Shown here piece by piece: positions 1,545-48,116 of a DNA stretch of 64,000 nt (positions are counted from its first letter, which is position 1; each line of letters begins with the position of its first letter). The stretch lies in NCBI GenBank assembly GCA_051362555.1, contig CM120647.1:12624651-12688650 (forward strand), given 5' to 3'. Position numbers and translations under genes: made by a program. Source of the stretch: Lingula anatina. Taxonomy: Eukaryota; Animalia; Brachiopoda. Below the pieces are notes generated by a model. That model did not search any database, had not been told where the DNA came from, and worked only from the letters and a program-made list of their open reading frames with translations.

Positions 1545-1790
1545 GTAGCTAATGCAGTTTAACAAATTATGAATGAACTCTTAGGCCCTTTTCATATCAG
1601 ATGGTATACTTGAAGCTACTGCCACACTTTCAGAGGTCCTAACTTGTACATGTAGTAATGCTATAGGTTTTACTCGCTTGCACAAGTTTGACAAGACAAG
1701 ACCAGAATGGATGGCCATATCGAGTCACAGTAGTTATCGTCTCATTTCTCTTTTTGCCAGAATTAATTTTTGAAAATTGCGATTGATTAC

Positions 1791-1796
1791 TATAAG
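1791..1796 (+). promoter_or_regulatory. TATA-like box ~30 bp upstream of the Pol III-type cassette (unit 1 shown)
   Basis: TATAAG 30 nt before GGGCGG at 1821; mutated to TATCAG or TATGAG in subsets of units. Confidence 0.4.
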
Positions 1797-1820
1797 AGGA
1801 AACTCGCACGTACGGAGGGT

Positions 1821-2027
1821 GGGCGGGTCTGTCACGGAGCAGTCGGTAGCGTGCATGGATACAAATGAGACATCAAAAGCGTCATCAACCATGGTAACTC
1901 AAAGTCACGGGTTCGAGTCCCGGATGAGGCACGTCAGTCCATCACTACAACGACCTTCCCCCTGAATCGGGATGTCACGAGACGGGAACGAATGAGGGAT
2001 CTCGTGGGACTTAGCAAATTACCTTTT
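1821..2027 (+). ncRNA. tRNA-derived Pol III-type transcription unit of ~205 nt (unit 1 shown; one per repeat unit)
   Basis: A-box-like CGGAGCAGTCGGTAGC (1835-1850); CATGG/CCATG stem at the anticodon-arm position around a 30-nt loop; B-box GGTTCGAGTCC (1910-1920) in a CGGG/CCCG T-stem; 3' hairpin TCACGAGA/TCTCGTGG; TTTT at 2024-2027. The acceptor stem is poor, so this is not a canonical tRNA. Confidence 0.6.
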
Positions 2028-2783
2028 GCATAAAAATACGGTATACTTTAGAAAGTTTACATCTGCGTCGACAATTCTATTTCCTTTCTCTTCAGTTAAA
2101 AGGCCTTATATTGGTGCCACAGATCTTGAACTTAAATTGAGCTATAACGAACTCCGTATGGCTTGCATTTCATCAAAATGTGCTATCTTCTTGGTGGGAT
2201 TATCAGAGAGAAAACTTTTCATTTTTTACTAAAGTTGCGTCACCTCTACTCCTTTTATCAGGCACGCATTTTGTTTGTTTGTTTGTTTGTTTCTTTTTTT
2301 AATGCCCTTCCTTTCCTATCTTGGGCCCTTGCTTCTCAAGATGTTCATATGTTCATACAGTACCAGGGGCAAGTAAGCAGTCGACATTTGAAAGAGTAAA
2401 GACTACTCAATACTTAAACTGCCGAGGTGTGAACAGCTGTGGACGTCATCGTGCTCCACAACGTCAAAGGTGAAACCAAACGTTATCTCAATGCAAAACC
2501 AAATGAAAATAAAAGCATCCGAAGTCAGCTTACTAGGAACGTACTAAGCAGGCCTATCAGTGGATACGATCCAAATTGTTTTGATTCTGTAGCTTTTCTG
2601 GTATTAAAGAACGTCATACCACCTGTTAACCAAACGATATCTCCTCGGCGGAATTATTTGCCAAATTTGTTTTACTAAAAATTTCCGTGGCTGCAATCGA
2701 ACCAGTAATTAAACACTTGAATGTATTTTTTTTTTATTCTCTCCTCTTATGGTCTCGCTAAAATTAAAACCCTCCTGTTGTGA
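2008..2783 (+). pseudogene. Decayed GIY-YIG endonuclease of Penelope-like retroelement type (unit 1 shown; best preserved e.g. 17331-18088)
   Basis: Colinear motifs across frameshifts: LLHKNTVY, RPYIGATDLELKLSYNEL, SQLTKNVLS, VLKHAIP, CQICLTE, PVIKHLN, K..LLL-stop. These resemble the invertebrate PLE EN pattern VVY..YIG.T...FK.RYN.H..ELSKHVW..ILKHA.PY..CxLCLTEK..LN. The catalytic Arg/His and the terminal CxH are not preserved. Confidence 0.5.
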
Positions 2784-3055
2784 ACTGCCTTTGATCTCAA
2801 GGTACTCTTTAATATCATGGGTAAAGCCAAAACCAATCTTAGTATAAAACCAACTCCGAGCTCCGAGTCGGGTTGTCAAACACGACTTCGTGTACATCAT
2901 GAAGTTCACCGTTCATTTCGGGGACTGGGGTTGCGTGGGCTGAAATGCGTCACCCGGATTATCGATTGCGATAGCAGGTCTCCACATGCACACCCAATCT
3001 GACGCTCTCTGTGACGAGGTTGAAAGTTTCCATCTGATCCATTAGAATCAACGGA

Positions 3056-3152
3056 GCTGTCGTGGCTGCGAGGTAACGCTGCTGGCTTACATACAGGCAG
3101 ACTCTCGGTCAATAGTTCGAGTCACAGTAGTTATCGTCTCATTTCTCTTTTT
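3056..3152 (+). pseudogene. Degenerate tRNA-like cloverleaf with T5 terminator (first complete copy shown; spans unit junctions)
   Basis: GCTGTCG/TCACAGT acceptor-like stem; A-box-like TGGCTGCGTGG (TGGCCGCGTGGTTA in some units); CTCGG/TCGAG stem with GTTCGAGTC; TTTTT at 3148-3152. The isotype cannot be assigned. Confidence 0.45.
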
Positions 3153-6100
3153 GCCAGAATTAATTTTTGAAAATTGCGATTGATTACTATAAGAGGAAAC
3201 TCGCACGTACGGAGGGTGGGCGGGTCTGTCACGGAGCAGTCGGTAGCGTGCATGGATACAAATGAGACATCAAAAGCGTCATCAACCATGGTAACTCAAA
3301 GTCACGGGTTCGAGTCCCGGATGAGGCACGTCAGTCCATCACTACAACGACCTTCCCCCTGAATCGGGATGTCACGAGACGGGAACGAATGAGGGATCTC
3401 GTGGGACTTAGCAAATTACCTTTTGCATAAAAATACGGTATACTTTAGAAAGTTTACATCTGCGTCGACAATTCTATTTCCTTTCTCTTCAGTTAAAAGG
3501 CCTTATATTGGTGCCACAGATCTTGAACTTAAATTGAGCTATAACGAACTCCGTATGGCTTGCATTTCATCAAAATGTGCTATCTTCTTGGTGGGATTAT
3601 CAGAGAGAAAACTTTTCATTTTTTACTAAAGTTGCGTCACCTCTACTCCTTTTATCAGGCACGCATTTTGTTTGTTTGTTTGTTTGTTTCTTTTTTTAAT
3701 GCCCTTCCTTTCCTATCTTGGGCCCTTGCTTCTCAAGATGTTCATATGTTCATACAGTACCAGGGGCAAGTAAGCAGTCGACATTTGAAAGAGTAAAGAC
3801 TACTCAATACTTAAACTGCCGAGGTGTGAACAGCTGTGGACGTCATCGTGCTCCACAACGTCAAAGGTGAAACCAAACGTTATCTCAATGCAAAACCAAA
3901 TGAAAATAAAAGCATCCGAAGTCAGCTTACTAGGAACGTACTAAGCAGGCCTATCAGTGGATACGATCCAAATTGTTTTGATTCTGTAGCTTTTCTGGTA
4001 TTAAAGAACGTCATACCACCTGTTAACCAAACGATATCTCCTCGGCGGAATTATTTGCCAAATTTGTTTTACTAAAAATTTCCGTGGCTGCAATCGAACC
4101 AGTAATTAAACACTTGAATGTATTTTTTTTTATTCTCTCCTCTTATGGTCTCGCTAAAATTAAAACCCCCCTGTTGTGAACCGCCTTTGATCGCAAGGTA
4201 CTCTTTAATATCATGGGTAAAGCCAAAACCAATCTTAGTATAAAACCAACTCCGAGCTCCGAGTCGGGTTGTCAAACACGACTTCGTGTACATCATGAAG
4301 TTCACCGTTCATTTCGGGGACTGGGGTTGCGTGGGCTGAAATGCGTCACCCGGATTATCGATTGCGACAGCAGGTCTCAACATGCACACCTAATCTGGCG
4401 CTCTCCGTGACGAGGTTGAAAGTTTCCATCTGATCCATCAGAATCAACGGAGCTGTCGTGGCTACGTGGTAACGCTGCTGGCTTACATACAGGCAGACTC
4501 TCGGTCGCTAGTTCGAGTCACAGTAGTTATCGTCTCATTTCTCTTTTTGCCAGAATCAATTTTTGAAAATTGCGATTGATTACTATAAGAGGAAACTCGC
4601 ACGTACGGAGGGTGGGCGGGTCTGTCACGGAGCAGTCGGTAGCGTGCATGGATACAAATGAGACATCAAAAGCGTCATCATCCATGGTTACTCAAAGTCA
4701 CGGGTTCGAGTCCCGGATGAGGCACGTCAGTCCATCACTACAACGACCTTCCCCCTGAATCGGGATGTCACGAGACGGGAACGAATGAGGGATCTCGTGG
4801 GACTTAGCAAATTACCTTTTGCATAAAAATACGGTATACTTTAGAAAGTTTACATCTGCGTCGACAATTCTATTTCCTTTCTCTTCAGTTAAAAGGCCTT
4901 ATATTGGTGCCACAGATCTTGAACTTAAATTGAGCTATAACGAACTCCGTATGGCTTGCATTTCATCAAAATGTGCTATCTTCTTGGTGGGATTATCAGA
5001 GGGAAAACTTTTCATTTTTTACTTAAGTTGCGTCACCTCTACTCCTTTTATCAGGCAATCATTTTGTTTGTGTGTTTGTTTCTTTTTTTTAATGCCCTTC
5101 CTTTCCTATCTTGGGCCCTTGCTTCTCAAGATGTTCATATGTTCATACAGTACCAGGGGCAAGTAAGCAGTCGACATTTGAAAGAGTAAAGACTACTCAA
5201 TACTTAAACTGCCGAGGTGTGAACAGCTGTGGACGTCATCGTGCTCCACAACGTCAAAGGTGAAACCAAACGTTATCTCAATGCAAAACCAAATGAAAAT
5301 AAAAGCATCCGAAGTCAGCTTACTAGGAACGTACTAAGCAGGCCTATCAGTGGATACGATCCAAATTGTTTTGATTCTGTAGCTTTTCTGGTATTAAAGA
5401 ACGTCATACCACCTGTTAACCAAACGATATCTCCTCGGCGGAATTATTTGCCAAATTTGTTTTACTAAAAATTTCCGTGGCTGCAATCGAACCAGTAATT
5501 AAACACTTGAATGTATTTTTTTTTATTCTCTCCTCTTATGGTCTCGCTAAAATTAAAACCCTCCTGTTGTGAACTGCCTTTGATCTCAAGGTACTCTTTA
5601 ATATCATGGGTAAAGCCAAAACCAATCTTAGTATAAAACCAACTCCGAGCTCCGAGTCGGGTTGTCAAACACGACTTCGTGTACATCATGAAGTTCACCG
5701 TTCATTTCGGGGACTGGGGTTGCGTGGGCTGAAATGCGTCACCCGGATTATCGATTGCGATAGCAGGTCTCCACATGCACACCCAATCTGACGCTCTCTG
5801 TGACGAGGTTGAAAGTTTCCATCTGATCCATTAGAATCAACGGAGCTGTCGTGGCTGCGAGGTAACGCTGCTGGCTTACATACAGGCAGACTCTCGGTCA
5901 ATAGTTCGAGTCACAGTAGTTATCGTCTCATTTCTCTTTTTGCCAGAATTAATTTTTGAAAATTGCGATTGATTACTATCAGAGGAAACTCGCACGTACG
6001 GAGAGTGGGCGGGTCTGTCACGGAGCAGTCGGTAGCGTGCATGGATACAAATGAGACATCAAAAGCGTCATCAACCATGGTAACTCAAAGTCACGGGTTC

Positions 6101-9100
6101 GAGTCCCGGATGAGGCACGTCAGTCCATCACTACAACGACCTTCCCCCTGAATCGGGATGTCACGAGACGGGAACGAATGAGGAATCTCGTGGGACTTAG
6201 CAAATTACCTTTTGCATAAAAATACGGTATACTTAAGAAAGTTTACATCTGCGTCGACAATTCTATTTCCTTTCTCTTCAGTTAAAAGGCCTTATATTGG
6301 TGCCACAGATCTTGAACTTAAATTGAGCTATAACGAACTCCGTATGGCTTGCATTTCATCAAAATGTGCTATCTTCTTGGTGGGATTATCAGAGGGAAAA
6401 CTTTTCATTTTTTACTAAAGTTGCGTCACCTCTTCTCCTTTTATCAGGCACGCATTTTGTTTGTTTGTTTGTTTCTTTTTTTTAATGCCCTTCCTTTCCT
6501 ATGTTGGACCCTTGCTTCTCAAGATGTTCATATGTTCATACAGTACCCGGGGCAAGTTAGCAGTCGACATTTGAAAGAGTAAAGACTACTCAATACTTAA
6601 ACTGCCGAGGTGTGAACAGCTGTGGACATCATCGTGCTCCACAACGTTAAAGGTGAAACCAAACGTTATCTCAATGCAAAACCAAATGAAAATAAAAGCA
6701 TCCGAAGTCAGCTTACTAGGAACGTACATGTACTAAGCAGGCCTATCAGTGGATACGATCCAAATTGTTTTGATTCTGTAGCTTTTCTGGTATTAAAGAA
6801 CGTCATACCACCTGTTAACCAAACGATATCTCCTCGGCGGAATTATTTGCCAAATTTGTTTTACTGAAAATTTCCGTGGCGGCAATCGCACCAGTAATTA
6901 AACACTTGAATGTATTTTTTTTTATTCTCTCCTCTTATGGTCTCGCTAAAATTAAAACCCTCCTGTTGTGAACCGCCTTTGATCGCAAGGTACTCTTTAA
7001 TATCATGGGTAAAGCCAAAACCAATCTTAGTATAAAACCAACTCCGAGCTCCGAGTCGGGTTGTCAAACACGACTTCGTGTACATCATGAAGTTCACCGT
7101 TCATTTCGGGGACTGGGGTTGCGTGGGCTGAAATGCGTCACCCGGATTATCGATTGCGACAGCAGGTCTCAACATGCACACCTAATCTGGCGCTCTCCGT
7201 GACGAGGTTGAAAGTTTCCATCTGATCCATCAGAATCAACGGAGCTGTCGTGGCTACGTGGTAACGCTGCTGGCTTACATACAGGCAGACTCTCGGTCGC
7301 TAGTTCGAGTCACAGTAGTTATCGTCTCATTTCTCTTTTTGCCAGAATCAATTTTTGAAAATTGCGATTGATTACTATAAGAGGAAACTCGCACGTACGG
7401 AGGGTGGGCGGGTCTGTCACGGAGCAGTCGGTAGCGTGCATGGATACAAATGAGACATCAAAAGCGTCATCATCCATGGTTACTCAAAGTCACGGGTTCG
7501 AGTCCCGGATGAGGCACGTCAGTCCATCACTACAACGACCTTCCCCCTGAATCGGGATGTCACGAGACGGGAACGAATGAGGGATCTCGTGGGACTTAGC
7601 AAATTACCTTTTGCATAAAAATACGGTATACTTTAGAAAGTTTACATCTGCGTCGACAATTCTATTTCCTTTCTCTTCAGTTAAAAGGCCTTATATTGGT
7701 GCCACAGATCTTGAACTTAAATTGAGCTATAACGAACTCCGTATGGCTTGCATTTCATCAAAATGTGCTATCTTCTTGGTGGGATTATCAGAGGGAAAAC
7801 TTTTCATTTTTTACTTAAGTTGCGTCACCTCTACTCCTTTTATCAGGCAATCATTTTGTTTGTTTGTTTGTTTCTTTTTTTTAATGCCCTTCCTTTCCTA
7901 TCTTGGGCCCTTGCTTCTCAAGATGTTCATATGTTCATACAGTACCAGGGGCAAGTAAGCAGTCGACATTTGAAAGAGTAAAGATTACTCAATACTTAAA
8001 CTGCCGAGGTGTGAACAGCTGTGGACGTCATCGTGCTCCACAACGTCAAAGGTGAAACCAAACGTTATCTCAATGCAAAACCAAATGAAAATAAAAGCAT
8101 CCGAAGTCAGCTTACTAGGAACGTACTAAGCAGGCCTATCAGTGGATACGATCCAAATTGTTTTGATTCTGTAGCTTTTCTGGTATTAAAGAACGTCATA
8201 CCACCTGTTAACCAAACGATATCTCCTCGGCGGAATTATTTGCCAAATTTGTTTTACTAAAAATTTCCGTGGCTGCAATCGAACCAGTAATTAAACACTT
8301 GAATGTATTTTTTTTTTTATTCTCTCCTCTTATGGTCTCGCTTAAATTAAAACCCTCCTGTTGTGAACTGCCTTTGATCTCAAGGTACTCTTTAATATCA
8401 TGGGTAAAGCCAAAACCAATCTTAGTATAAAACCAACTCCGAGCTCCGAGTCGGGTTGTCAAACACGATTTCGTGTACATCATGAAGTTCACCGTTCATT
8501 TCGGGGACTGGGGTTGCGTGGGCTGAAATGCGTCACCCGGATTATCGATTGCGATAGCAGGTCTCCACATGCACACCCAATCTGACGCTCTCTGTGACGA
8601 GGTTGAAAGTTTCCATCTGATCCATTAGAATCAACGGAGCTGTCGTGGCTGCGAGGTAACGCTGCTGGCTTACATACAGGCAGACTCTCGGTCAATAGTT
8701 CGAGTCACAGAAGTTATCGTCTCATTTCTCTTTTTGCCAGAATTAATTTTTGAAAATTGCGATTGATTACTATCAGAGGAAACTCGCACGTACGGAGAGT
8801 GGGCGGGTCTGTCACGGAGCAGTCGGTAGCGTGCATGGATACAAATGAGACATCAAAAGCGTCATCATCCATGGTTACTCAAAGTCACGGGTTCGAGTCC
8901 CGGATGAGGCACGTCAGTCCATCACTACAACGACCTTCCCCCTGAATCGGGATGTCACGAGACGGGAACGAATGAGGGATCTCGTGGGACTTAGCAAATT
9001 ACCTTTTGCATAAAAATACGGTATACTTTAGAAAGTTTACATCTGCGTCGACAATTCTATTTCCTTTCTCTTCAGTTAAAAGGCCTTATATTGGTGCCAC

Positions 9101-21100: not shown

Positions 21101-24100
21101 GACGAGGTTGAAAGTTTCCATCTGATTCATTACAATAAACGGAGCTGTCGTGGCTGCGTGGTAACGCTGCTGGCTTACATACAGGCAGACTCTCGGTCGC
21201 TAGTTCAAGTCACAGTAGTTATCGCCTCATTTCTCTTTTTGCCAGTAATTTTTGAAAATTGCGATTGATTACTATGAGAGGAAACTCGCACGTACGGAGG
21301 GTGGGCGGGTCTGTCACGGAGCAGTCGGTAGCGTGCATGGGTACAAATGAGACATCAAAAGCATCATCAACCATGGTAACTCAAAGTCACGGGTTCGAGT
21401 CCCGGATGAGGCACGTCAGTCCAACACTACAACGACCTTCCCCCTGAATCGGGATGTCACGAGACGGGAACGAATGAGGGATCTCGTGGGACTTAGCAAA
21501 TAACCTTTTGCATAAAAATACGGTATACTTTAGAAAGTTTACATCTGCGTCGATAATTCTATTTCCTTTCTCTTCAGTTAAAAGGCCTTATATTGGTGCC
21601 ACAGATCTTGAACTTAAATTGAGCTATAACGAACTCCGTATGGCTTGCATTTCATCAAAATGTGCTATCTTCTTGGTGGGATAATCAGAGAGAAAACTTT
21701 TCATTTTTTACTAAAGTTGCGTCACCTCTACTCCTTTTATCAGGCACGCATTTTGTTTGTTTGTTTGTTTCTTTTTTTTAATGCCCTTCCTTTCCTATGT
21801 TGGACCCTTGCTTCTCAAGATGTTCATATGTTCATACAGTACCCGGGGCAAGTTAGCAGTCGACATTTGAAAGAGTAAGGACAACTCAATACTTAAACTG
21901 CCGAGGTGTGAACAGCTGTGGACGTCATCGTGCTCCACAACGTCAAAGGTGAAACCAAACGTTATCTCAATGCAAAACCAAATGAAAATAAAAGCATCCG
22001 AAGTCAGCTTACTAGGAACGTACTAAGCAGGCCTATCAGTGGATACGATCCAAATTGTTTTGATTCTGTAGCTTTTCTGGTATTAAAGAACGTCATACCA
22101 CCTGTTAACCAAACGATATCTCCTCGGCGGAATTATTTGCCAAATTTGTTTTACTGAAAATTTCCGTGGCGGCAATCGCACCAGTAATTAAACACTTGAA
22201 TGTATTTTTTTTTATTCTCTCCTCTTATGGTCTCGCTAAAATTAAAACCCTCCTGTTGTGAACCGCCTTTGATCGCAAGGTACTCTTTAATATCATGGGT
22301 AAAGCCAAAACCAATCTTAGTATAAAACCAACTCCGAGCTCCGAGTCGGGTTGTCAAACACGACTTCGTGTACATCATGAAGTTCACCGTTCATTTCGGG
22401 GACTGGGGTTGCGTGGGCTGAAATGCGTCACCCGGATTATCGATTGCGACAGCAGGTCTCAACATGCACACCTAATCTGGCGCTCTCCGTGACGAGGTTG
22501 AAAGTTTCCATCTGATCCATCAGAATCAACGGAGCTGTCGTGGCTACGTGGTAACGCTGCTGGCTTACATACAGGCAGACTCTCGGTCGCTAGTTCGAGT
22601 CACAGTAGTTATCTTCTCATTTCTCTTTTTGCCAGAATTAATTTTTGAAAATTGCGATTGATTACTATAAGAGGAAACTCGCACGTACGGAGGGTGGGCG
22701 GGTCTGTCACGGAGCAGTCGGTAGCGTGCATGGATACAAATGAGACATCAAAAGCGTCATCAACAATGGTAACTCAAAGTCACGGGTTCGAGTCCCGGAA
22801 GAGGCACGTCAGTCCATCACTACAACGACCTTGCCCCTGAATCGGGATGTCACGAGACGGGAACGAATAAGGGATCTCGTGGGACTTAGCAAATTACCTT
22901 TTGCATAAAAATACGGTATACTTTAGAAAGTGTACATCTGCGTCGACAATTCTATTTCCTTTCTCTTCAGTTAAAAGGCCTTATATTGGTGCCACAGATC
23001 TTGAACTTAAATTGAGCTATAACGAACTCCGTATGGCTTGCATTTCATCAAAATGTGCTATCTTCTTGGTGGGATTATCAGAGAGAAAACTTTTCATTTT
23101 TTACTAAAGTTGCGTCACCTCTACTCCTTTTATCAGGCACGCATTTTGTTTGTTTGTTTGTTTGTTTGTTTGTTTTTATGCCCTTCCTTTCCTATCTTGG
23201 GCCCTTGCTTCTCAAGATGTTCATATGTTCATACAGTACCCGGGGCAAGTTAGCAGTCGACATTTGAAAGAGTAAAGACTACTCAATACTTAAACTGCCG
23301 AGGTGTGAACAGCTGTGGACGTCATCGTGCTCCACAACGTCAAAGGTGAAACCAAACGTTATCTCAATGCAAAACCAAATGAAAATAAAAGCATCCGAAG
23401 TCAGCTTACTAGGAACGTACTAAGCAGGCCTATCAGTGGATACGATCCAAATTGTTTTGATTCTGTAGCTTTTCTGGTATTAAAGAACGTCATACCACCT
23501 GTTAACCAAACGATATCTCCTCGGCGAAATTATTTGCCAAATTTGTCTTACTGAAAATTTCCGTGGCTGCAATCGCACCAGTAATTAAACACTTGAATGT
23601 ATTTTTTTTTATTCTCTCCTCTTATGGTCTCGCTAAAATTAAAACCCTCCTGTTGTGGACCGCCTCTGATCCCAAGGTACTCTTTAATATCATGGGTAAA
23701 GCCAAAACCAATCTTGGTATAAAACCAACTCCGAGCTCTGAGTCGGGTTGTCAAACACGGCTTCGTGTACATCATGAAGTTCACCGTTCATTTCGGGGAC
23801 TGGGGTTGCGTGGGCTGAAATGCAGCACCCGGATTATCGATTGCGATAGCAGGTCTCAACATGCACACCTAATCTGGCGCTCTCCGTGACGAGGTTGAAA
23901 GTTTCCATCTGATTCATTACAATAAACGGAGCTGTCGTGGCTGCTAGTCCCTTACCTACACTGGTCTATCGTTTCATTGTGTGAAAAGCTCCAGTGGCCA
24001 GACAATTTTCACGGTGCCATGAAGATAAACAGTTAAAAAATATCCACAATAAATTCGGCAACCGTAGGATGCGCCAACATATAGATAATTGCGATAGTAT

Positions 24101-25020
24101 TTATGCCAAAACATCAAAATGAATAGCCCTGCCGTTCCAATCGGCAATCCTCGACTGTCGAGTGCGGAGACATCCGAGTAGTTCCAAGTGCTGCCGTTCT
24201 ACCCTTTAAACCAATCAAAGCAACGGAAAGGGGTCACGTGATCACTTGACCTACATCTGATCGATGTAAACAATGAATTTCCATGCGAAGCTTGCACATT
24301 TAATAGATGATTCCCATGCGTTGTTTCAATAAAAAAAATACGTCCTAGGTTTTTAAAATCGATGTCAATATCGAGAGAAAGATTTAAATAGTTGGAAAAT
24401 ACGTGTATTTTAGGTGTATTTATATAATTGGCTAAATGATGACGTGAATTCACGGCAAAAAGGTATGTAGTATAGCCCGTAGACTGTGCACTGTACCACT
24501 TCTACAATCGCACACAGGTCACACTATTACCCAATATAGTGATCATATAATCACTTGCATGTATGTTCAGTAATGTTACATTGAATGCATTTTAAATTCT
24601 CAGGTGTGTTAAAGCGCATATAATCACTTAAAATTATTTGACTCAATATTTTACACTGATAAATAGTATAAATGCATGTGTAGAGTTACAAACTAGGTAT
24701 CATGCGGACTGTCTGTTTATGAAGCTGGCAAGTGCTCAAAAAATTATTTCAAAAATATATAAGTGCTTCACTAGGTAGAATAATTGAGTTTTTTATGTTC
24801 AAGTTTATCTTTAAATTGCAGAGGTACAATTTTTAAAGAAGTTTAATTGTTGCAATTAATTGCAGCATTGTCTAGTAATAACAGCATATTAAAAGAAATA
24901 ACAGCTCACATTTAACAAGGCTTTTATGATATATATAATATATTTTTCCAACTTAATTATTTCAACTGTGAAATTATAACTTTCTACATTTCTTGTGCAT
25001 ATCTGAAAAAGATTAATAAA

Positions 25021-25485
25021 ATGCCATTCGAACAGGTACACTTAAAGTTTTGCAAATGGATTTTAGGTCTAAGAAAGCAGGCTAGCAATACCATTTTTAG
25101 AGCTAAGCTTGGCAGTTACCCCATTATTTCAACTATAACTAAACCTGTCTAAAGATTAGTCTTAGACTGGAACAACTACTAGTACATAATAGAACTGTAA
25201 ATCAGGTGCACAGTCTTGAGCAAGATACAAAAGGAAACACATGGACAGAATCTATCCGAAGATAACAACCCACCAAAGAAATTATATCAAATAGAAAACC
25301 TTTTAGAAATATTGAACATAAAAATCGAAAAACACTTCTGGCAGGAATTAAATAGCTCAATCTCAAACAAATTAAGGGCATACAAAACAATAAAAAAATA
25401 TTATGAATGTGAAAATTACATCAAAATGAGTGTCTCCCCATTAAATATCAAAACACTTGCAAAAATTAGACTAAGTGACCACAAC
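25021..25485 (+). mobile_element. Non-LTR retrotransposon (L2/Crack/CR1-group-like) ORF2 C-terminal fragment inside the transposon
   Basis: Translates to FEQVHLKFCKWILGLRKQASN..RAKLGSYP and NKLRAYKTIKKYYECENYI...LAKIRLSDHN, the typical post-RT motifs of invertebrate LINEs; contains stops and frameshifts. Confidence 0.8.
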
Positions 25486-25489
25486 TTTT

Positions 25490-25621
25490 TTTTTTTTTTT
25501 TTACAAATAATGCAGATAGCTGGCAGCACTGGTGACTTTGATATACCAAACCCTGAGACTGATCTCAATTTCTTGGGAGATGGACCTTGTATTTTGGGAA
25601 GAGTACAACTGGTTGATGGTT
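25490..25621 (-). pseudogene. Truncated exon 2 of the Academ-type transposase
   Basis: Minus-strand acceptor ttttgcttcttttacAG, then (E)PSTSCTLPKIQGPSPKKLRSVSGFGISKSPVLPAICIICKKK. The phase matches the exon-1 donor; the exon is broken at the A17 run abutting the LINE fragment. Confidence 0.65.
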
Positions 25622-26822
25622 CTGTAAAAGAAGCAAAATAACATTTTACTTTTCATACCATATATATTAGTGCATTATAATGTGCAGATACTGACTACTA
25701 CAAAAACAACTTTAACATTGGATAAATATCCAAGTGGGTGTAACAAAGATATGTAAAAATAGTAATGTGCTCAAAATTCAGTTATAAAAACAGTTGCCCT
25801 GTATAAATAAAAAGACAACATAGAATACATATTTCAAATAAAAACATCTGGATACCTGGATACACAAATGATTTAGCAAATACAGAGCAGACCGCAAATC
25901 CTTGATTGTTGCAAGTGCAATTGTATATACAATCACTATGATTTAACTATAAAATAAATAAATAATAATGAAATAAGATAAGACAGTCGCATGTGAGTTT
26001 ATCACATGATTGACACCAAGTGATATTAACAACTATAATTACATATATCCTCATGATTCAAAGGGCATAGGGTAGGTATAGGATTCAATGTATTAGTGGC
26101 TCAACATGTTCCTTTTATGAGGAACTAAGCTGTAACAAACTATAGGCAAATGAGACCCACTGTTTAATATTTGTTGCAACTAAGACAAATAAATCAAGTT
26201 TAAAGATCTAATAATTAATAGGGAGCCCACTAGCATTCTGCTGCCCAGATTAATATCAGATGCCTTGAATAAAAGTGACTCTTCTCTTTAAACTGAACTA
26301 CATCTACCAGTCACCCTACTCATTATAATTATTCCTTAATTGATACTGTTTGTCAACGTATTTCTTTATTGATACTATTTATGTATACCTTTACTGATTT
26401 TATTCATAAGGGAAAGTTACAAGGATTATTCCTAACAGTCCTAATTAAATTAATCACATTGCAGCTTGTTCTGTGAAAAGCTATCCTACTTTTTCTGGCT
26501 CACAATATACAGTAAATATTCCCTCAAATACATTCTCATTGAAGTTGGGCTTAGCCTATACATATTTATATTCACTAATGGTTGCACATGTGCAACAATG
26601 TAACTGGGGGGGAGGAACACTCCACAAATAACATAAAAGATTCTACCATGATACTTAAGCCTCTGTCTCATAAAGTCCCACCATAACATTTGTTTGTATA
26701 TCTTGTTGTGTGAAGCCTTACATTATTTTGTGTAAATGCAATGCTAATATGGATGAACTAATAATGAGATGTTAATCATGGCAAGAACATACAGCTAGCT
26801 TAGGCTGTATTCCCAGAGCTTT

Positions 26823-26983
26823 TAGATTGATCTGTCCCCGCAGGGAGTCTCACTAGATTACTGGATTACTAGATTTCTCACTAGATTATCCGCCTTAAAT
26901 GTCCGTCCCGCCTACTACAAGCTGTAAGGGGGTATTTGACTTTCGTGTCCGCCCCACTGACAGCTGTTTAGCGTGAACCCCTA
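26823..26983. repeat. Second copy of the short structured repeat seen at 1011-1164, within the transposase intron
   Basis: Shared 5' 32-mer pattern, shared CGCCTA..TAAGGGGGGTA core and shared CCCCTA end. Confidence 0.55.
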
Positions 26984-27236
26984 AAGTAGATATATCTAAT
27001 CTCTGGAAATGGGGTCTTATTCAACAGAGAATGAGTTGTTTCATATCTTAAAACCTCTAAGTATTTACAAATAAAATAATAATAACACTAATAAACTTTT
27101 TTATCATTGTCTTTTTTTTTCTTTCTTTCATATCACTTTTATCAGTCACATATTGTTATGTAACATCAGCCACGTACAATGTAAACATCACACGATCAGG
27201 GCTGATTTAAAAACAAATTACAATATGTTGACATAC

Positions 27237-27597
27237 CTTCTTCAGCAGGACTGCCTTGTTTCTCAGCTTTCTCATACTTCTTTGCCGCCTGAGATAGCCC
27301 CTTCTTGTTAGTTAGCTTTCTGTAGCAAGAAAAGTGACATCGTGGTTTGGCTTCCAAATCGTCGAATCCTTTATCTAAATCCGTACTTTACGGATCCACT
27401 GAACAGCAGCGGCTTCTCTGCTGCCAAATTTCCGCCATTGTTTCGCTGCGACTCTAAAATTTTCCCAGCGAACACGTGTGATGGTATCTAGAGTCTCTTA
27501 ATTAGCTACCTTCTTCTATGTGCATGCAACACGAAAGATGAGAATTTGGCGAAGATTTCGCGTCTCCCTCCTCAGACTCTTCATTACAGCCGACCAT
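27237..27597 (-). pseudogene. Frameshifted exon 1 of the Academ-type transposase
   Basis: ATG at 27597 just inside the inverted repeat. Reads MVGCNEES..CCMH / RWENFRVAAKQWRKF / PRCHFSCYRKLTNKKGLSQAAKK over two frameshifts and ends at a phase-1 donor G|GTATGT. Confidence 0.65.
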
Positions 27598-30500
27598 GCT
27601 GCTTTGTTTACATGGCATGGCCTGGTGGGAAGGTGACGTGACCCCCTTTCCGTTGCTTTGATTGGTTAATCTGATCTGAATCTGATTAAAAGGCTCGAAC
27701 GGCGGGGCTATTTATTTTGATGTTTCGGCATAAATACTACCGCAATTATCTATATGTTGCCGCACCTCTCGGTTGCCGAATTTATTGTGGATATTCTTTT
27801 ACTGTTTATCTTAATGCACCGTGAAAATTGTTTGGCCACATCACATATTGAAGGAAAGAGCTTTTCTAAACGCTTTTATGCATATCAGGTAGGGGACTAT
27901 GCGTGGTAACGCTGCTGGCTTACATACAGGCAGACTCTCGGTCGCTAGTTCAAGTCACAGTAGTTATCGCCTCATTTCTCTTTTTGCCAGTAATTTTTGA
28001 AAATTGCGATTGATTACTATGAGAGGAAACTCGCACGTACGGAGGGTGGGCGGGTCTGTCACGGAGCAGTCGGTAGCGTGCATGGGTACAAATGAGACAT
28101 CAAAAGCGTCATCAACCATGGTAACTCAAAGTCACGGGTTCGAGTCCCGGATGAGGCACGTCAGTCCAACACTACAACGACCTTCCCCCTGAATCGGGAT
28201 GTCACGAGACGGGAACGAATGAGGGATCTCGTGGGACTTAGCAAATAACCTTTTGCATAAAAATACGGTATACTTTAGAAAGTTTACATCTGCGTCGATA
28301 ATTCTATTTCCTTTCTCTTCAGTTAAAAGGCCTTATATTGGTGCCACAGATCTTGAACTTAAATTGAGCTATAACGAACTCCGTATGGCTTGCATTTCAT
28401 CAAAATGTGCTATCTTCTTGGTGGGATTATCAGAGAGAAAACTTTTCATTTTTTACTAAAGTTGCGTCACCTCTACTCCTTTTATCAGGCACGCATTTTG
28501 TTTGTTTGTTTGTTTCTTTTTTTTAATGCCCTTCCTTTCCTATGTTGGACCCTTGCTTCTCAAGATGTTCATATGTTCATACAGTACCCGGGGCAAGTTA
28601 GCAGTCGACATTTGAAAGAGTAAGGACAACTCAATACTTAAACTGCCGAGGTGTGAACAGCTGTGGACGTCATCGTGCTCCACAACGTCAAAGGTGAAAC
28701 CAAACGTTATCTCAATGCAAAACCAAATGAAAATAAAAGCATCCGAAGTCAGCTTACTAGGAACGTACTAAGCAGGCCTATCAGTGGATACGATCCAAAT
28801 TGTTTTGATTCTGTAGCTTTTCTGGTATTAAAGAACGTCATACCACCTGTTAACCAAACGATATCTCCTCGGCGGAATTATTTGCCAAATTTGTTTTACT
28901 GAAAATTTCCGTGGCGGCAATCGCACCAGTAATTAAACACTTGAATGTATTTTTTTTTATTCTCTCCTCTTATGGTCTCGCTAAAATTAAAACCCTCCTG
29001 TTGTGAACCGCCTTTGATCGCAAGGTACTCTTTAATATCATGGGTAAAGCCAAAACCAATCTTAGTATAAAACCAACTCCGAGCTCCGAGTCGGGTTGTC
29101 AAACACGACTTCGTGTACATCATGAAGTTCACCGTTCATTTCGGGGACTGGGGTTGCGTGGGCTGAAATGCGTCACCCGGATTATCGATTGCGACAGCAG
29201 GTCTCAACATGCACACCTAATCTGGCGCTCTCCGTGACGAGGTTGAAAGTTTCCATCTGATCCATCAGAATCAACGGAGCTGTCGTGGCTACGTGGTAAC
29301 GCTGCTGGCTTACATACAGGCAGACTCTCGGTCGCTAGTTCGAGTCACAGTAGTTATCTTCTCATTTCTCTTTTTGCCAGAATTAATTTTTGAAAATTGC
29401 GATTGATTACTATAAGAGGAAACTCGCACGTACGGAGGGTGGGCGGGTCTGTCACGGAGCAGTCGGTAGCGTGCATGGATACAAATGAGACATCAAAAGC
29501 GTCATCAACAATGGTAACTCAAAGTCACGGGTTCGAGTCCCGGAAGAGGCACGTCAGTCCATCACTACAACGACCTTGCCCCTGAATCGGGATGTCACGA
29601 GACGGGAACGAATAAGGGATCTCGTGGGACTTAGCAAATTACCTTTTGCATAAAAATACGGTATACTTTAGAAAGTTTACATCTGCGTCGACAATTCTAT
29701 TTCCTTTCTCTTCAGTTAAAAGGCCTTATATTGGTGCCACAGATCTTGAACTTAAATTGAGCTATAACGAACTCCGTATGGCTTGCATTTCATCAAAATG
29801 TGCTATCTTCTTGGTGGGATTATCAGAGAGAAAACTTTTCATTTTTTACTAAAGTTGCGTCACCTCTACTCCTTTTATCAGGCACGCATTTTGTTTGTTT
29901 GTTTGTTTGTTTGTTTGTTTTTATGCCCTTCCTTTCCTATCTTGGGCCCTTGCTTCTCAAGATGTTCATATGTTCATACAGTACCCGGGGCAAGTTAGCA
30001 GTCGACATTTGAAAGAGTAAAGACTACTCAATACTTAAACTGCCGAGGTGTGAACAGCTGTGGACGTCATCGTGCTCCACAATGTCAAAGGTGAAACCAA
30101 ACGTTATCTCAATGCAAAACCAAATGAAAATAAAAGCATCCGAAGTCAGCTTACTAAGAACGTACTAAGCAGGCCTATCAGTGAATACGATCCAAATTGT
30201 TTTGATTCTGTAGCTTTTCCGGTATTAAAGCACGCCATACCACCAGTAGATAAACGATATCTCCTCGGCGAAATTATTTGCCAAATTTGTCTTACTGAAA
30301 ATTTCCGTGGCTGCAATCGAACCAGTAATTAAACACTTGAATGTATTTTTTTTTAATTCTCTCCTCTTACGGTCTCGCTAAAATTAAAACCCTCCTGTTG
30401 TGAACCGCCTCTGATCCCAAGGTACTCTTTAATATCATGGGTAAAGCCAAAACCAATCTTAGTATAAAACCAACTCCGAGCTCCGAGTCGGGTTGTCAAA

Positions 30501-42500: not shown

Positions 42501-45500
42501 GCCCTTGCTTCTCAAGATGTTCATATGTTCATACAGTACCAGGGGCAATTAAGCAGTCGACATTTGAAAGAGTAAAGACTACTCAATACTTAAACTGCCG
42601 AGGTGTGAACAGCTGTGGACGTCATCGTGCTCCACAACGTCAAAGATGAAACCAAACGTTATCTCAATGCAAAACCAAATGAAAATAAAAGCATCCGAAG
42701 TCAGCTTACTAGGAACGTACTAAGCAGGCCTATCAGTGGATACGATCCAAATTGTTTTGATTCTGTAGCTTTTCTGGTATTAAAGAACGTCATACCACCT
42801 GTTAACCAAACGATATCTCCTCGGCGAAATTATTTGCCAAATTTGTCTTACTGAAAATTTCCGTGGCTGCAATCGCACCAGTAATTAAACACTTGAATGT
42901 ATTTTTTTTTATTCTCTACTCTTATGGTCTCGCTAAAATTAAAACCCTCCTGTTGTGGACCGCCTCTGATCCCAAGGTACTCTTTAATATCATGGGTAAA
43001 GCCAAAACCAATCTTGGTATAAAACCAACTCCGAGCTCTGAGTCGGGTTGTCAAACACGGCTTCGTGTACATCATGAAGTTCACCGTTCATTTCGGGGAC
43101 TGGGGTTGCGTGGGCTGAAATGCGTCACCCGGATTATCGTTTGCGATAGCAGGTCTCAACATGCACACCTAATCTGGCGCTCTCCGTGACGAGGTTGAAA
43201 GTTTCCATCTGATCCATTAGAATCAACGGAGCTGTCGTGGCCACGTGGTTACGCTGCTGGCTTACATACGGGCAGACTCTCGGTCGCTAGTTCGAGTCAC
43301 AGTAGTTATCGTCTCATTTCTCTTTTTGCCAGAATTAATTTTTGAAAATTGCGATTGATTACTATAAGAGGAAACTCGCACGTACGGAGGGTGGGCGGGT
43401 CTGTCACGGAGCAGTCGGTAGCGTGCATGGATACAAATGAGACATCAAAAGCGTCATCAACCATGGTTACTCAAAGTCACGGGTTCGAGTCCCGGAAGAG
43501 GCACGTCAGTCCATCACTACAACGACCTTGCCCCTGAATCGGGATGTCACAAGACGGGAACGAATAAGGGATCTCGTGGGACTTAGCAAATTACCTTTTG
43601 CATAAAAATACGGTATACTTTAGAAAGTTTACATCTGCGTCGACAATTCAATTTCCTTTCTCTTCAGTTAAAAGGCCTTATATTGGTGCCACAGATCTTG
43701 AACTTAAATTGAGCTATAACGAACTCCGTATGGCTTGCATTTCATCAAAATGTGCTATCTTCTTGGTGGGATTATCAGAGAGAAAACTTTTCATTTTTTA
43801 CTAAAGTTGCGTCACCTCTACTCCTTTTATCAGGCACGCATTTTGTTTGTTTGTTTGTTTGTTTGTTTGTTTGTTTTTATGCCCTTCCTTTCCTATCTTG
43901 GGCCCTTGCTTCTCAAGATGTTCATATGTTCATACAGTACCCGGGGCAAGTTAGCAGTCGACATTTGAAAGAGTAAAGACTACTCAATACTTAAACTGCC
44001 GAGGTGTGAACAGCTGTGGACGTCATCGTGCTCCACAACGTCAAAGGTGAAACCAAACGTTATCTCAATGCAAAACCAAATGAAAATAAAAGCATCCGAA
44101 GTCAGCTTACTAGGAACGTACTAAGCAGGCCTATCAGTGGATACGATCCAAATTGTTTTGATTCTGTAGCTTTTCTGGTATTAAAGAACGTCATACCACC
44201 TGTTAACCAAACGATATCTCCTCGGCGAAATTATTTGCCAAATTTGTCTTACTGAAAATTTCCGTGGCTGCAATCGCACCAGTAATTAAACACTTGAATG
44301 TATTTTTTTTTATTCTCTCCTCTTATGGTCTCGCTAAAATTAAAACCCTCCTGTTGTGAACCGCCTCTGATCCCAAGGTACTCTTTAATATCATGGGTAA
44401 AGCCAAAACCAATCTTGGTATAAAACCAACTCCGAGCTCCGAGTCGGGTTGTCAAACACGACTTCGTGTACATCATGAAGTTTACCGTTCATTTCGGGGA
44501 CTGGGGTTGCGTGGGCTGAAATGCAGCACCCGGATTATCGATTGCGATAGCAGGTCTCCACATGCACACCCAATCTGGCGCTCTCCGTGACGAGGTTGAA
44601 AGTTTCCATCTGATCAATAAGAATCAACGGAGCTGTCGTGGCTGCGTGGTAACGCTGCTGGCTTACATACAGGCAGACTCTCGGTCGCTAGTTCAAGTCA
44701 CAGTAGTTATCGCCTCATTTCTCTTTTTGCCAGAATTAATTTTTGAAAATTGCGATTGATTACTATAAGAGGAAACTCGCACGTACGGAGGGTGGGCGGG
44801 TCTGTCACGGAGCAGTCGGTAGCGTGCATGGATACAAATGAGACATCAAAAGCGTCATCAACCATGGTAACTCAAAGTCACGGGTTCGAGTCCCGGATGA
44901 GGCAAGTCAGTCCAACACTACAACGACCTTCCCCCTGAATCGGGATGTCACGAGACGGGAACGAATGAGGGATCTCGTGGGACTTAGCAAATTATCTTTT
45001 GCATAAAAATACGGTATACTTTAGAAAGTTTACATCTGCGTCGACAATTCTATTTCCTTTCTCTTCAGTTAAAAGGCCTTATATTGGTGCCACAGATCAT
45101 GAACTTAAATTGAGCTATAACGAACTCCGTATGGCTTGCATTTCATCAAAATGTGCTATCTTCTTGGTGGGATTATCAGAGAGAAAACTTTTCATTTTTT
45201 ACTAAAGTTGCGTCACCTCTACTCCTTTTATCAGGCACGCATTTTGTTTGTTTGTTTGTTTGTTTCTTTTTTTTAATGCCCTTCCTTTCCTATGTTGGAC
45301 CCTTGCTTCTCAAGATGTTCATATGTTCATACAGTACCCGGGGCAAGTTAGCAGTCGACATTTGAAAGAGTAAAGACTACTCAATACTTAAACTGCCGAG
45401 GTGTGAACAGCTGTGGACGTCATCGTGCTCCACAACGTCAAAGGTGAAACCAAACGTTATCTCAATGCAAAACCAAATGAAAATAAAAGCATCCGAAGTC

Positions 45501-48116
45501 AGCTTACTAGGAACGTACTAAGCAGGCCTATCAGTGGATACGATCCAAATTGTTTTGATTCTGTAGCTTTTCTGGTATTAAAGAACGTCATACCACCTGT
45601 TAACCAAACGATATCTCCTCGGCGAAATTATTTGCCAAATTTGTCTTACTGAAAATTTCCGTGGCTGCAATCGCACCAGTAATTAAACACTTGAATGTAT
45701 TTTTTTTTATTCTCTCCTCTTATGGTCTCGCTAAAATTAAAACCCTCCTGTTGTGAACCGCCTCTGATCCCAAGGTACTCTTTAATATCATGGGTAAAGC
45801 CAAAACCAATCTTGGTATAAAACCAACTCCGAGCTCCGAGTCGGGTTGTCAAACACGACTTCGTGTACATCATGAAGTTTACCGTTCATTTCGGGGACTG
45901 GGGTTGCGTGGGCTGAAATGCAGCACCCGGATTATCGATTGCGATAGAAGGTCTCCACATGCACACCCAATCTGGCGCTCTCCGTGACGAGGTTGAAAGT
46001 TTCCATCTGATCAATAAGAATCAACGGAGCTGTCGTGGCTGCGTGGTAACGCTGCTGGCTTACATACAGGCAGACTCTCGGTCGCTAGGTCGAGTCACAG
46101 TAGTTATCGTCTCATTTCTCTTTTTGCCAGAATCAATTTTTGAAAATTGCGATTGATTACTATAAGAGGAAACTCGCACGTACGGAGGGTGGGCGGGTCT
46201 ATCACGGAGCAGTCGGTAGCGTGCATGGATACAAATGAGACATCAAAAGCGTCATCAACCATGGTAACTCAAAGTCACGGGTTCGAGTCCCGGATGAGGC
46301 ACGTCAGTCCATCACTTCAACGACCTTGCCCCTGAATCGGGATGTCACGAGACGGGAACGAATGAGGGATCTCGTGGGACTTAGCAAATTACCTTTTGCA
46401 TAAAATACGGTATACTTTAGAAAGTTTACATCTGCGTCGACAATTCTATTTCCTTTCTCTTCAGTTAAAAGGCCTTATATTGGTGCCACAGATCTTGAAC
46501 TTAAATTGAGCTATAACGAACTCCGTATGGCTAGCATTTCATCAAAATGTGCTATCTTCTTGGTGGGATTATCAGAGAGAAAACTTTTCATTTTTTACTA
46601 AAGTTGCGTCACCTCTACTCCTTTTATCAGGCACGCATTTTGTTTGTTTGTTTGTTTCTTTTTTTTAATGCCCTTCCTTTCCTATGTTGGACCCTTGCTT
46701 CTCAAGATGTTCATATGTTCATACAGTACCCGGGGCAAGTTAGCAGTCGACATTTGAAAGAGTAAAGACTACTCAATACTTAAACTGCCGAGGTGTGAAC
46801 AGCTGTGGACGTCATCGTGCTCCACAACGTCAAAGGTGAAACCAAACGTTATCTCAATGCAAAACCAAATGAAAATAAAAGCATCCGAAGTCAGCTTACT
46901 AGGAACGTACTAAGCAGGCCTATCAGTGGATACGATCCAAATTGTTTTGATTCTGTAGCTTTTCTGGTATTAAAGAACGTCATACCACCTGTTAACCAAA
47001 CGATATCTCCTCGGCGGAATTATTTGCCAAATTTGTTTTACTGAAAATTTCCGTGGCTGCAATCGCACCAGTAATTAAACACTTGAATGTATTTCTTTTT
47101 TATTCTCTCCTCTTATGGTCTCGCTAAAATTAAAACCCTCCTGTTGTGAACCGCCTTTGATCGCAAGGTACTCTTTAATATCATGGGTAAAGCCAAAACC
47201 AATCTTAGTATAAAACCAACTCCGAGCTCCGAGTCGGGTTGTCAAACACGACTTCGTGTACATCATGAAGTTTACCGTTCATGTCGGGGACAGGCGTTGC
47301 GTGGGCTGAAATGCAGCACCCGGATTATCGATTGCGACAGCAGGTCTGCACATGTACACCGAATCTGGCGCTCTCCGAGATGAGGTTGAAAGTTTTCATC
47401 TGATCAATTTGAATCAACGGAGCTTTCGTGGCTGCGTGGTAACGCTGCTGACTTACATACAGGCAGACTCCAAAAGAAAAATATACGGCATTCTCATCAA
47501 TGTCTATGCATTTTACTCGGATTAAGCAACTTTGCAGTCGAAATTTAACCTCACTTTACTATTGCTCATCTCTGACTTCTTCCTTAAATAAGAATGAGCT
47601 GAACAATAACTCTAACAAAAGAACAGATCAAATTACCGGCCTTAATGTGTACTTTTTATCGACAGTACGTACGAGAACCGTGAGTCTCTGCATTGCATTT
47701 TGCGCTAAGTAAGTGGAGAACAAAGGCTCCTATTTCGAGCCCATTGCAACCTTCAATAATAAACTTACTAACTTAAAAGAAGCGTAGGGAATCATTTCAT
47801 ATGTCCCTTACATAGGAGGTGATTTGGTGATTTTTTTTTTCATATTCTTAACTCAACCTGTACACCCCTTACACATGTACGTAAACACGTGAATCCGATA
47901 CAGCACGTGCGATTAATGTTTGAATAATGTTCTACAAAATACTCTTTGTCAACAAGAAATAATCATGTAATACCAGTTGTCTCTGTAGCGCAAGACGTTA
48001 GAACATAATGAATCATAATTTTATGACAAAAAGACATTTATTCAAATGATCGACTCTAACGCAGATAAACGTTTGAAAATAAGTTGCATGGAAAGCTTGT
48101 GTAAGGCCTTTTGATT

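What the first reader, a model, noticed from the sequence alone, without database searches (positions are those of the whole stretch)
1720..47470. 30-copy array of a composite unit: Pol III tRNA-derived cassette + Penelope-type endonuclease remnant + second tRNA-like module
Seen: each 1.39-kb unit carries, on one strand, an A/B-box cassette, a colinear decayed GIY-YIG reading frame and another cloverleaf-like module. Known: Penelope-like elements (PLEs) form tandem arrangements through pseudo-LTRs that include the EN 3' end, and SINEs combine a tRNA head with the tail of a partner retroelement. Inference: this may be a non-autonomous, Pol III-driven PLE-dependent element amplified as a tandem array, or a structured-ncRNA gene array. 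The mundane alternative is satellite amplification of an old decayed patch.
Basis: partly seen in the sequence, partly recalled or inferred. Interest (0 to 1): 0.85.

Follow-up and report, generated by a model that had tools for sequence, protein, structure and literature searches.

The report
Brachiopod satellite built from transposon debris
Thirty head-to-tail copies of a 1.39-kb unit in a Lingula brachiopod carry two worn tRNA-like promoter motifs and a likely scrap of a Penelope-type nuclease gene; it is most likely an ordinary satellite DNA made of old mobile-element debris and multiplied by DNA recombination, not an active RNA-copied element.

Summary
The neighbouring gene places the window in Lingula. 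Two A/B-box pairs are present (0 of 2000 shuffles give two), but neither folds as a cloverleaf better than chance, and neither is less variable than the rest. The Penelope-type endonuclease remnant has weak support: two colinear islands about 350 nt too far apart. It sits at chance level on one copy (7 settings) and above decoy profiles across copies (0 of 437). No hammerhead ribozyme was found. Four RNA runs show only trace reads, mostly antisense. Contigs from four DNA runs show the whole unit as an old, high-copy, mostly tandem family. Copies are mosaic and duplicated in blocks of 2-4 units, which points to DNA-level turnover. Best reading (0.65): a complex satellite made of tRNA/SINE-like and PLE debris, seeded here as a whole-number concatemer. 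The left end (A|TC) and a CTAG-T-TC junction leave a Helitron-like reading open (0.15).

The parts
1720..47470 (+). Tandem array of 30 units of about 1.39 kb; the two outer ends together lack only 12 nt of a whole number of units
1719..1721 (+). Left boundary: flank A followed by TC, falling inside the B-like box of module 2; the first unit has no private changes
3119..4514 (+). Reference unit used for most tests (second copy)
3148..3152 (+). T5 run after module 2; diverged copies elsewhere in the genome repeatedly begin here (46121 in the last unit)
   Evidence: tables 7 and 8
3224..3424 (+). Module 1: tRNA-like head (A-like box 3232-3243, B box 3307-3317), about 95-nt tail, T4 at 3421; SINE-like or tRNA-pseudogene remnant (inferred)
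3504..3548 (+). First endonuclease-like island (YIG motif)
   Evidence: at chance level on its own
3666..3697 (+). (TTTG)n microsatellite and T run of variable length, inside the gap between the two islands
3878..4082 (+). Second endonuclease-like island ending in a CxxCL motif; one open frame in the subfamily of copies 17027, 29342, 33532, 37720 and 40509
4452..4548 (+). Module 2: A-like box 4459-4469, B-like box 4510-4520, T5 at 4544; spans the unit junction, which reads weak hairpin, 11 nt, CTAG, T, TC
23945..27899 (.). Inserted non-autonomous DNA transposon (inferred): about 300-nt imperfect terminal inverted repeats, 3-bp target duplication TGC, inside the A-like box of module 2 in one copy
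47240..47470 (+). Right border: 12 private changes in the last two alignment blocks; the junction to flank is also seen in contigs of two runs
   Evidence: table 8 (X2 record 21, X4 record 28)
48117..49397 (-). Neighbouring single-exon gene pointing toward the array; 94% identical to a Lingula anatina protein; likely source of antisense read-through

Best explanation
The 30 units are shown to be a tandem, mosaic, high-copy repeat of a Lingula genome, and are most likely a complex satellite whose monomer is an old patch of debris (two decayed tRNA-type heads and a likely Penelope-endonuclease scrap) that no longer works as a gene or retroelement. Inferred history: (1) tRNA/SINE-like and PLE fragments piled up and decayed; (2) the 1.39-kb patch became tandem long ago; (3) a circle or concatemer of whole units, opened inside module 2, was inserted at this locus; (4) unequal exchange and gene conversion expanded and shuffled the copies; (5) one copy later took a DNA-transposon insertion. 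Shown: array anatomy, mosaic copies, block duplications, the insertion, and family-wide presence in contigs. Inferred: the origin of the parts, seeding by a circle, and lack of function.
For: DNA-level turnover: 808 of 3160 informative site pairs fail the four-gamete test, rising from 0.14 under 200 columns to 0.54 beyond 1200. Near-identical pairs cluster at lags of 1-6 units (2, 5, 3, 4, 1, 2 pairs) with none at 7-8. Family-wide and old: in 4 of 4 DNA runs laid, 855-1634 contigs cover every bin of the unit and only 2-5% run on into unlike sequence. Single contigs reach depths of 1100-3700, where long pieces lie at 19-230. A contig about 15% diverged keeps the same head-to-tail junction. Variants carried by deep contigs are absent from this window. 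No constraint on the modules: diversity is 0.025, 0.023 and 0.041 against 0.023 for the whole unit. No excess structure, no hammerhead, and trace, mostly antisense RNA continuous with the neighbouring gene. The two array ends are 12 nt apart on the circular unit while the two boxes of module 2 run across the junction, so the junction is older than this locus. Precedents: SINE-derived satellites (PMC10702118) and TE tandems expanded by unequal exchange or circle reinsertion (PMC5932611).
Against: No whole genome was held, so the number and ends of other arrays were not seen. Summed contig depth is no copy number. The RNA libraries (polyA, oligo-dT, or unspecified selection; 133-151-nt reads; 6-25% of each run read) can lose a 200-nt Pol III RNA. 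The B box of module 1 is intact in 29 of 30 copies, and a TATA-like word lies about 30 nt upstream (by eye). The YIG island is among the least variable windows (0.008, 6th percentile). The left end is a precise A|TC and has 0 private changes against 12 at the right end; plain unequal exchange does not explain this asymmetry. Diverged copies repeatedly start at one T run with varied flanks, which hints at a mobile element.
Confidence: 0.65

Rival explanations
1. The unit is a non-autonomous Helitron-like element that captured tRNA-like and PLE fragments, and the array began as a rolling-circle concatemer. The B-like box of module 2 would be the joined ends.
For: The left end is flank A then TC. 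22 of 29 internal junctions keep CTAG one base before that TC, with a hairpin ending 11 nt before CTAG. Such sites number 2.8 per shuffled unit (500 shuffles), about 0.002 per breakpoint. Helitrons form head-to-tail arrays and capture fragments (PMC5876387, PMC2267711, passages).
Against: Described junctions join CTAG directly to TC (PMC5876387); this one has an extra T. The hairpin is weak (-3.2 kcal/mol, 10th percentile of chance sites). The right end stops 11 nt before the end of CTAG and is followed by C, not T. A tRNA T-arm can carry such a word anyway (recalled). The recurrent boundary in other contigs is 31 nt further in, and no boundary at the TC is among the 24 of 917 loose-end rows shown. 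It rests on one breakpoint, noticed after the fact.
Confidence: 0.15
2. One reading: a non-autonomous element transcribed by Pol III from module 1 and copied by a Penelope-like reverse transcriptase into tandem arrays.
For: The endonuclease remnant scores above decoy profiles across copies: best 27.2 bits, 0 of 437 and 0 of 379 decoys; median 22.9, 0 of 437 and 1 of 379. An earlier profile gave 2 of 315 and 0 of 340 for the best and 7 of 315 and 9 of 340 for the median. Non-autonomous PLEs with multicopy head-to-tail insertions exist (MRC1), and PLE insertions can carry a 30-40-bp tail (PMC8557442, passages). The left end lies 31 nt outside the boundary seen in other contigs.
Against: No hammerhead in the array, although 29 of 64 fetched PLE loci carry the core within 400 nt of the stop. 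The C-terminal part of the endonuclease is not matched. T runs at 3421 and later would stop Pol III before the remnant. There are no partial tandems, inverted copies or 5' truncations in the array, and only trace sense RNA. On copy 3119, seven settings gave chance-level scores.
Confidence: 0.07
3. A functional array of Pol III non-coding RNA genes (module 1, about 205 nt) kept at high copy for a stage such as oogenesis.
For: Intact B box in 29 of 30 copies, a T4 terminator, an upstream TATA-like word, and CpG observed/expected of 1.02. The bin holding the upstream region and A-like box is the deepest in 4 of 4 DNA runs, and some diverged copies keep about 100 nt of upstream sequence with the head.
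Against: The A-like box deviates at two positions in all 30 copies and has a deletion in 2. There is no Rfam family, the fold is no better than shuffles, diversity is not reduced, and there is almost no sense RNA in 4 of 4 runs laid.
Confidence: 0.08

Closest known systems
SINE-derived satellites of squamates (PMC10702118; abstract and Discussion read)
   Same: Tandem arrays built from tRNA-derived SINE sequence, homogenised within long arrays, with di- and trimeric alternation of monomers.
   Different: Those units are parts of a recognisable SINE with a SINE terminus at the array edge. Here the unit is 1.39 kb, composite, and its heads do not behave like an abundant dispersed SINE at 80-90% identity.
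TE-derived tandem arrays formed by circle reinsertion and unequal exchange (PMC5932611; passages)
   Same: Whole-unit head-to-tail array, higher-order blocks, later TE insertion inside the array.
   Different: No autonomous or intact parent element was identified, and there is no target duplication at the junctions or ends.
Helitron and Helentron non-autonomous elements (PMC5876387, PMC2267711, PMC4067079 passages; PMC7492417 abstract)
   Same: A|TC left end, CTAG near the junction, an internal microsatellite, captured fragments, no target duplication.
   Different: Extra T at the junction, weak hairpin, right end not at CTAG, and no 11-15-bp subterminal inverted repeats (self-BLAST).
Non-autonomous PLEs (MRC1/Chlamys) and metazoan retrozymes (PMC8557442, PMC7229834; passages)
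   Same: Multicopy head-to-tail arrangement; probable PLE-derived sequence in the unit.
   Different: Retrozyme units are 150-450 bp, carry a hammerhead and are highly transcribed. This unit is 1.39 kb, lacks a hammerhead and shows only trace RNA.
Lophotrochozoan tRNA-derived SINEs, including LinSINE1 of Lingula (PMC4824008; section 9 and supplement file 2 read)
   Same: tRNA-type head with widened A-B spacing and a tail of about 100 nt; by-eye likeness of two short stretches to bivalve SINE tails.
   Different: No Meta, V or CORE domain recognised by eye. LinSINE1 stands in a figure that is not held, so it could not be compared.

Membership tests
Complex (long-monomer) satellite DNA | Long head-to-tail array of a non-coding monomer | tested here: met
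   30 units; no ORF under selection
Complex (long-monomer) satellite DNA | Homogenisation and higher-order blocks by recombination | tested here: met
   97.6% identity; four-gamete failures rise with distance; near-identical pairs at lags 1-6
Complex (long-monomer) satellite DNA | High copy number across individuals, mostly tandem | tested here: met
   4 of 4 DNA runs laid, 2-5% of contigs run on unlike, single contigs of depth 1100-3700; the exact copy number is not given by this tool
Complex (long-monomer) satellite DNA | Heterochromatic or clustered chromosomal location | not testable with these tools
   no genome held
PLE-derived non-autonomous element or retrozyme | Sequence derived from a PLE GIY-YIG endonuclease | tested here: inconclusive
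   chance level on copy 3119 (HMMER E 0.14; 42 of 150; 11-63 of 100; 82 of 300); above decoys across copies; best blastx E 0.055 among 269 proteins; only one C-terminal-EN clade was tested
PLE-derived non-autonomous element or retrozyme | Hammerhead ribozyme in the repeat | tested here: not met
   a covariance model from 25 PLE hammerheads has no hit in any unit at E<=10; it hits 8 of 12 held-out loci, five at 50-62 bits
PLE-derived non-autonomous element or retrozyme | Partial tandems, variable 5' truncation, inverted copies | tested here: not met
   all units full length and direct in this array; other loci not seen
PLE-derived non-autonomous element or retrozyme | 3' end shared with an autonomous partner in the same genome | not testable with these tools
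   no genome held
PLE-derived non-autonomous element or retrozyme | Abundant unit-length or circular RNA | tested here: inconclusive
   depth at most 7, mostly antisense, in 4 of 9 listed RNA runs laid; libraries are ill-suited to short or circular RNA
tRNA-derived SINE | A and B boxes at tRNA-like spacing | tested here: met
tRNA-derived SINE | Many dispersed copies with ends at the head and tail | tested here: not met
   no pile of loose ends at module 1 in RNA or DNA lays, unlike the repeat at 49522-49640; relatives under 80% identity would be missed
tRNA-derived SINE | LINE-derived 3' tail, target duplication | tested here: inconclusive
   by-eye likeness to bivalve SINE tails only; an 18-nt motif had 0 matches and an 11-nt core matched 19 copies, which chance can give over so much compared sequence
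tRNA gene | Cloverleaf fold recognised by tRNA models | tested here: not met
Helitron (canonical) | 5' TC preceded by host A | tested here: met
   1719-1721; one end only
Helitron (canonical) | 3' CTRR followed by host T at the outer end | tested here: not met
   right end stops short of CTAG and is followed by C
Helitron (canonical) | Precise CTAG-TC tandem junction | tested here: not met
   one extra base at all 22 junctions that keep CTAG
Helitron (canonical) | 16-20-nt palindrome 10-15 nt from the 3' end | tested here: inconclusive
   weak 22-nt hairpin, -3.2 kcal/mol, at about the right distance

The most novel reading that the evidence does not exclude
The unit is a Pol III-driven parasite of a Penelope-like element, a SINE of a PLE, that is copied as multimers without a hammerhead and has become a species-wide satellite in Lingula, with a 31-nt PLE-type tail at the array end.
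Probability: 0.07. Interest if true: 0.8.

Novelty: new member of a known kind. Interest (0 to 1): 0.3.

Why it matters
As read here it is a modest find. It is a long-monomer satellite family in a brachiopod for which ten literature searches (listings only) showed no description. The array is fully resolved and shows block duplication, conversion, an old right border, a fresh-looking left border and one later insertion, so it is a clean case for studying how satellites move between loci. It would matter more if the left end proved a true rolling-circle origin made from a tRNA T-arm, or if a Pol III RNA were found that a Penelope-type enzyme copies; no such SINE-PLE pair turned up in the searches.

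Tried and rejected
No RNA holder was listed in the run index; this is no evidence on expression. Pfam and PHROGs scans of the unit frames gave nothing useful, but two full-length PLE proteins also got no RT or GIY-YIG family in Pfam, so the blank says nothing. A homology search with the 58-aa YIG peptide found 6 candidates and none at E<=10; the Atlas gave low-recognition hits of 0.86. DNA-level profile of 90 PLE 3' regions: no hit in the array at E<=10. A frame of up to 379 codons (429 in other copies) stopped only by TGA suggested a selenoprotein or mitochondrial ORF. It reached 8 of 3000 dinucleotide and 56 of 3000 trinucleotide nulls. It was rejected because N:S is 71:27, the neutral expectation (synonymous share 0.28 against 0.26), several copies have frameshifts, Pfam is blank and RNA depth is minimal. 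Rfam near-hits (U12 E 0.37, snoRNAs, Plastid-ycf2) are far below the gathering scores. A possible decayed hammerhead near 4260-4300, seen by eye, was not scored by the model. The B-box pattern in prokaryote genomes gave 4 unrelated loci that were not used. Earlier-findings look-ups were empty. Penelope/Poseidon, Neptune and Naiad endonucleases were not tested for want of seed sequences. MetaSINE supplement file 1 and figure 2 (LinSINE1) could not be read and may bear on the identity of module 1.
Full report
Source. No genome is held for the window. The gene next to the array (48117-49397, minus strand) is 94% identical to Lingula anatina LOC106175460, and all 11 hits are from that species. The window is therefore from a Lingula brachiopod, L. 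anatina or a close relative.

The array. Thirty anchors lie between 1722 and 46092, spaced 1360-1401 nt, with one gap of 5355. The array runs from 1720 to 47470. Copies differ by 33 substitutions on average (range 0-55). The gap is a 3,955-bp element with about 300-nt imperfect terminal inverted repeats and a 3-bp target duplication, sitting in the A-like box of module 2 of the 16th copy. No part of the unit occurs elsewhere in the window.

The tRNA-like modules. Two B-like boxes each have an A-like box upstream, at 76 and 52 nt. Two such pairs on one strand arose in 0 of 2000 shuffles and one pair in 33. Neither module is a tRNA: default ARAGORN found none, relaxed scores of 86.3 and 76.5 fall within the range of shuffles (median 82.2, 90th percentile 86.9, n=300), and Rfam gave no tRNA at E<=10 in four scans. 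The predicted 210-nt RNA folds no better than shuffles (z +1.0; 169 of 200 fold as well). Module 1 keeps its B box in 29 of 30 copies, while its A-like box deviates at two positions in all. Module 2's B-like box is altered at core positions in 4 of 29 junction copies. Diversity is 0.025 and 0.023 in module 1, 0.041 in module 2 and 0.023 overall.

The endonuclease remnant. I fetched real C-terminal PLE endonucleases with a motif scan (120 loci, 36 distinct intact domains) and widened the set twice (120 and 149 proteins). Their assignment to the Nematis-like clade rests on my recall of the motifs and on the upstream Zn-finger-like motif described in PMC8557442. On copy 3119, HMMER gave E 0.14. 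A frameshift-aware alignment was at chance in all settings: 42 of 150, 11-63 of 100 in six settings, 82 of 300. Other copies scored higher. Across 7 of the 30 copies the best score (26.6 bits) was reached by 1 of 674 DNA nulls and by 2 of 315 and 0 of 340 decoy profiles; the median by 17 of 674, 7 of 315 and 9 of 340. With settings fixed and a new profile from the 149 proteins, the best (27.2) was reached by 0 of 437 and 0 of 379 decoys and the median (22.9) by 0 of 437 and 1 of 379. Without a long insertion allowed, scores fell to 16.5-18.9. The alignment joins a YIG island (3504-3548) to a second island ending in CxxCL (to 4082) across about 350 nt that hold the microsatellite. The best single protein gave 32% identity over 71 residues, E 0.055. 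Held-out endonuclease DNA decayed by 20% was detected 40 of 40 times, by 30% 24 of 40, and by 40% 3 of 40. If real, the remnant is about 30% or more decayed. I put it at about 60% real. Only this clade was tested.

Hammerhead. 29 of 64 fetched PLE loci carry the core within 400 nt of the stop. A model from 25 of them hits 8 of 12 held-out loci (five at 50-62 bits) and no array unit at E<=10.

RNA. Four of nine listed RNA runs were laid on the last unit plus flank, reading 6-25% of each. In X17 the neighbouring gene has a depth of 23-83. The unit has 0.6-7.0 in the same orientation, that is antisense to the modules and continuous with the gene's downstream region, and at most 1.1 in the sense orientation. 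The other three runs give at most 4.4. These libraries can miss short non-polyadenylated RNA, so this is weak evidence.

DNA in other samples. Four of eleven listed DNA runs were laid at 80% likeness. Each gave 855-1634 contigs over all bins of the unit, and 2-5% ran on into unlike sequence. Summed depth is no copy number, but single contigs reach 2739 (X1), 2148 (X2), 1100 (X4) and 3700 (X10), where long pieces lie at 19-230. Two variant motifs from these contigs are absent from the window. Pieces 10-20% diverged cover most of the unit, and one keeps the head-to-tail junction. The right junction is bridged in X2 and X4; either could be the source sample. Diverged copies repeatedly begin at the T run at 46121 with varied flanks (10 contigs in X10, two pieces in X1, one in X4). 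Only 32 of 4841 pieces, 24 of 917 loose ends and 15 of 101 joints were shown.

How it changes. 808 of 3160 site pairs fail the four-gamete test, more with distance (0.14 to 0.54), and near-identical copies recur at lags of 1-6 units. This is what unequal exchange and conversion give (established theory; PMC5932611, passages).

How it came here. Both outer ends fall inside module 2, 12 nt apart on the circular unit, with no target duplication. A local duplication would also give adjacent ends, but here the two boxes of module 2 run across the junction and an old diverged contig shares it. I infer insertion of a circle or concatemer from another locus. The left end is A|TC and the junction reads hairpin, 11 nt, CTAG, T, TC. 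This resembles Helitron ends (PMC2267711, PMC4067079, PMC5876387; passages) and has a chance of about 0.002 per breakpoint, but three of four membership features fail or are unclear. The right border has 12 private changes and the left none; this is unexplained.

Verdict. The unit works like, and is filed as, a complex satellite made of mobile-element debris (0.65). It is not filed as a PLE-dependent element, retrozyme, SINE family, tRNA gene or Helitron, since each failed at least one defining test.

Papers seen: PMC8557442 abstract and passages; PMC11481361 passages; PMC7229834 passages; PMC10702118 abstract and Discussion; PMC4824008 passages, section 9 and supplement file 2; PMC5876387, PMC2267711, PMC4067079, PMC5932611 passages; PMC7492417 abstract; PMC4595640 passages and supplement rows. 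The last lists Penelope at 0.339% and Helitron at 0.004% of the draft Lingula genome, which favours PLE debris as a source and weighs a little against a Helitron. No description of this repeat appeared in the listings of ten searches.

Noticed in passing
window 23945-27899: Non-autonomous inverted-repeat DNA transposon with a 3-bp target duplication and no transposase ORF; holds a stretch at 25201-25641 that looks by eye like the C-terminal end of a LINE reverse transcriptase.
   Followed up: partly
window 48117-49397 (-): Single-exon 426-codon frame of a family expanded in Lingula (11 hits, all L. anatina); no Pfam family; expressed in one of four RNA runs, with many fixed differences from the window.
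   Followed up: partly
window 49522-49640: Short GC-rich repeat with inverted ends and many loose-ended RNA reads in all four runs; a typical dispersed MITE-like element.
   Followed up: no
window 62791-63294 (+): First exon of a gene with a weak FkbM methyltransferase match (Pfam E 0.058).
   Followed up: no
window 4027-5166 (+) and equivalents: Frame of 180-430 codons interrupted only by TGA across the unit junction; evolves neutrally and is frameshifted in several copies.
   Followed up: yes
window 46189-46417 (run X10): A contig of depth 3700 joins the two sides of module 1, letters between not known; may be a subfamily that lacks or replaces module 1.
   Followed up: no
window 46078/47470 to 46559: A variant in two DNA runs and one RNA run leaves the unit at the same place where the array ends on the right and rejoins after the YIG island.
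   Followed up: partly
window 4174-4210 and 3372-3415: By-eye likeness to the 3' tails of BivaCORE-SINE2 (L2-type) and BivaMD-SINE1 in the supplement of PMC4824008; not significant as tested.
   Followed up: partly
window 56023-61545: Several older direct and inverted repeats at 67-88% identity, unrelated to the array.
   Followed up: no
window 3868-3883 and 4025-4040 (approximate): A 16-nt direct repeat (15 of 16 alike) about 157 nt apart inside the second endonuclease-like island, hinting at an old internal duplication.
   Followed up: no
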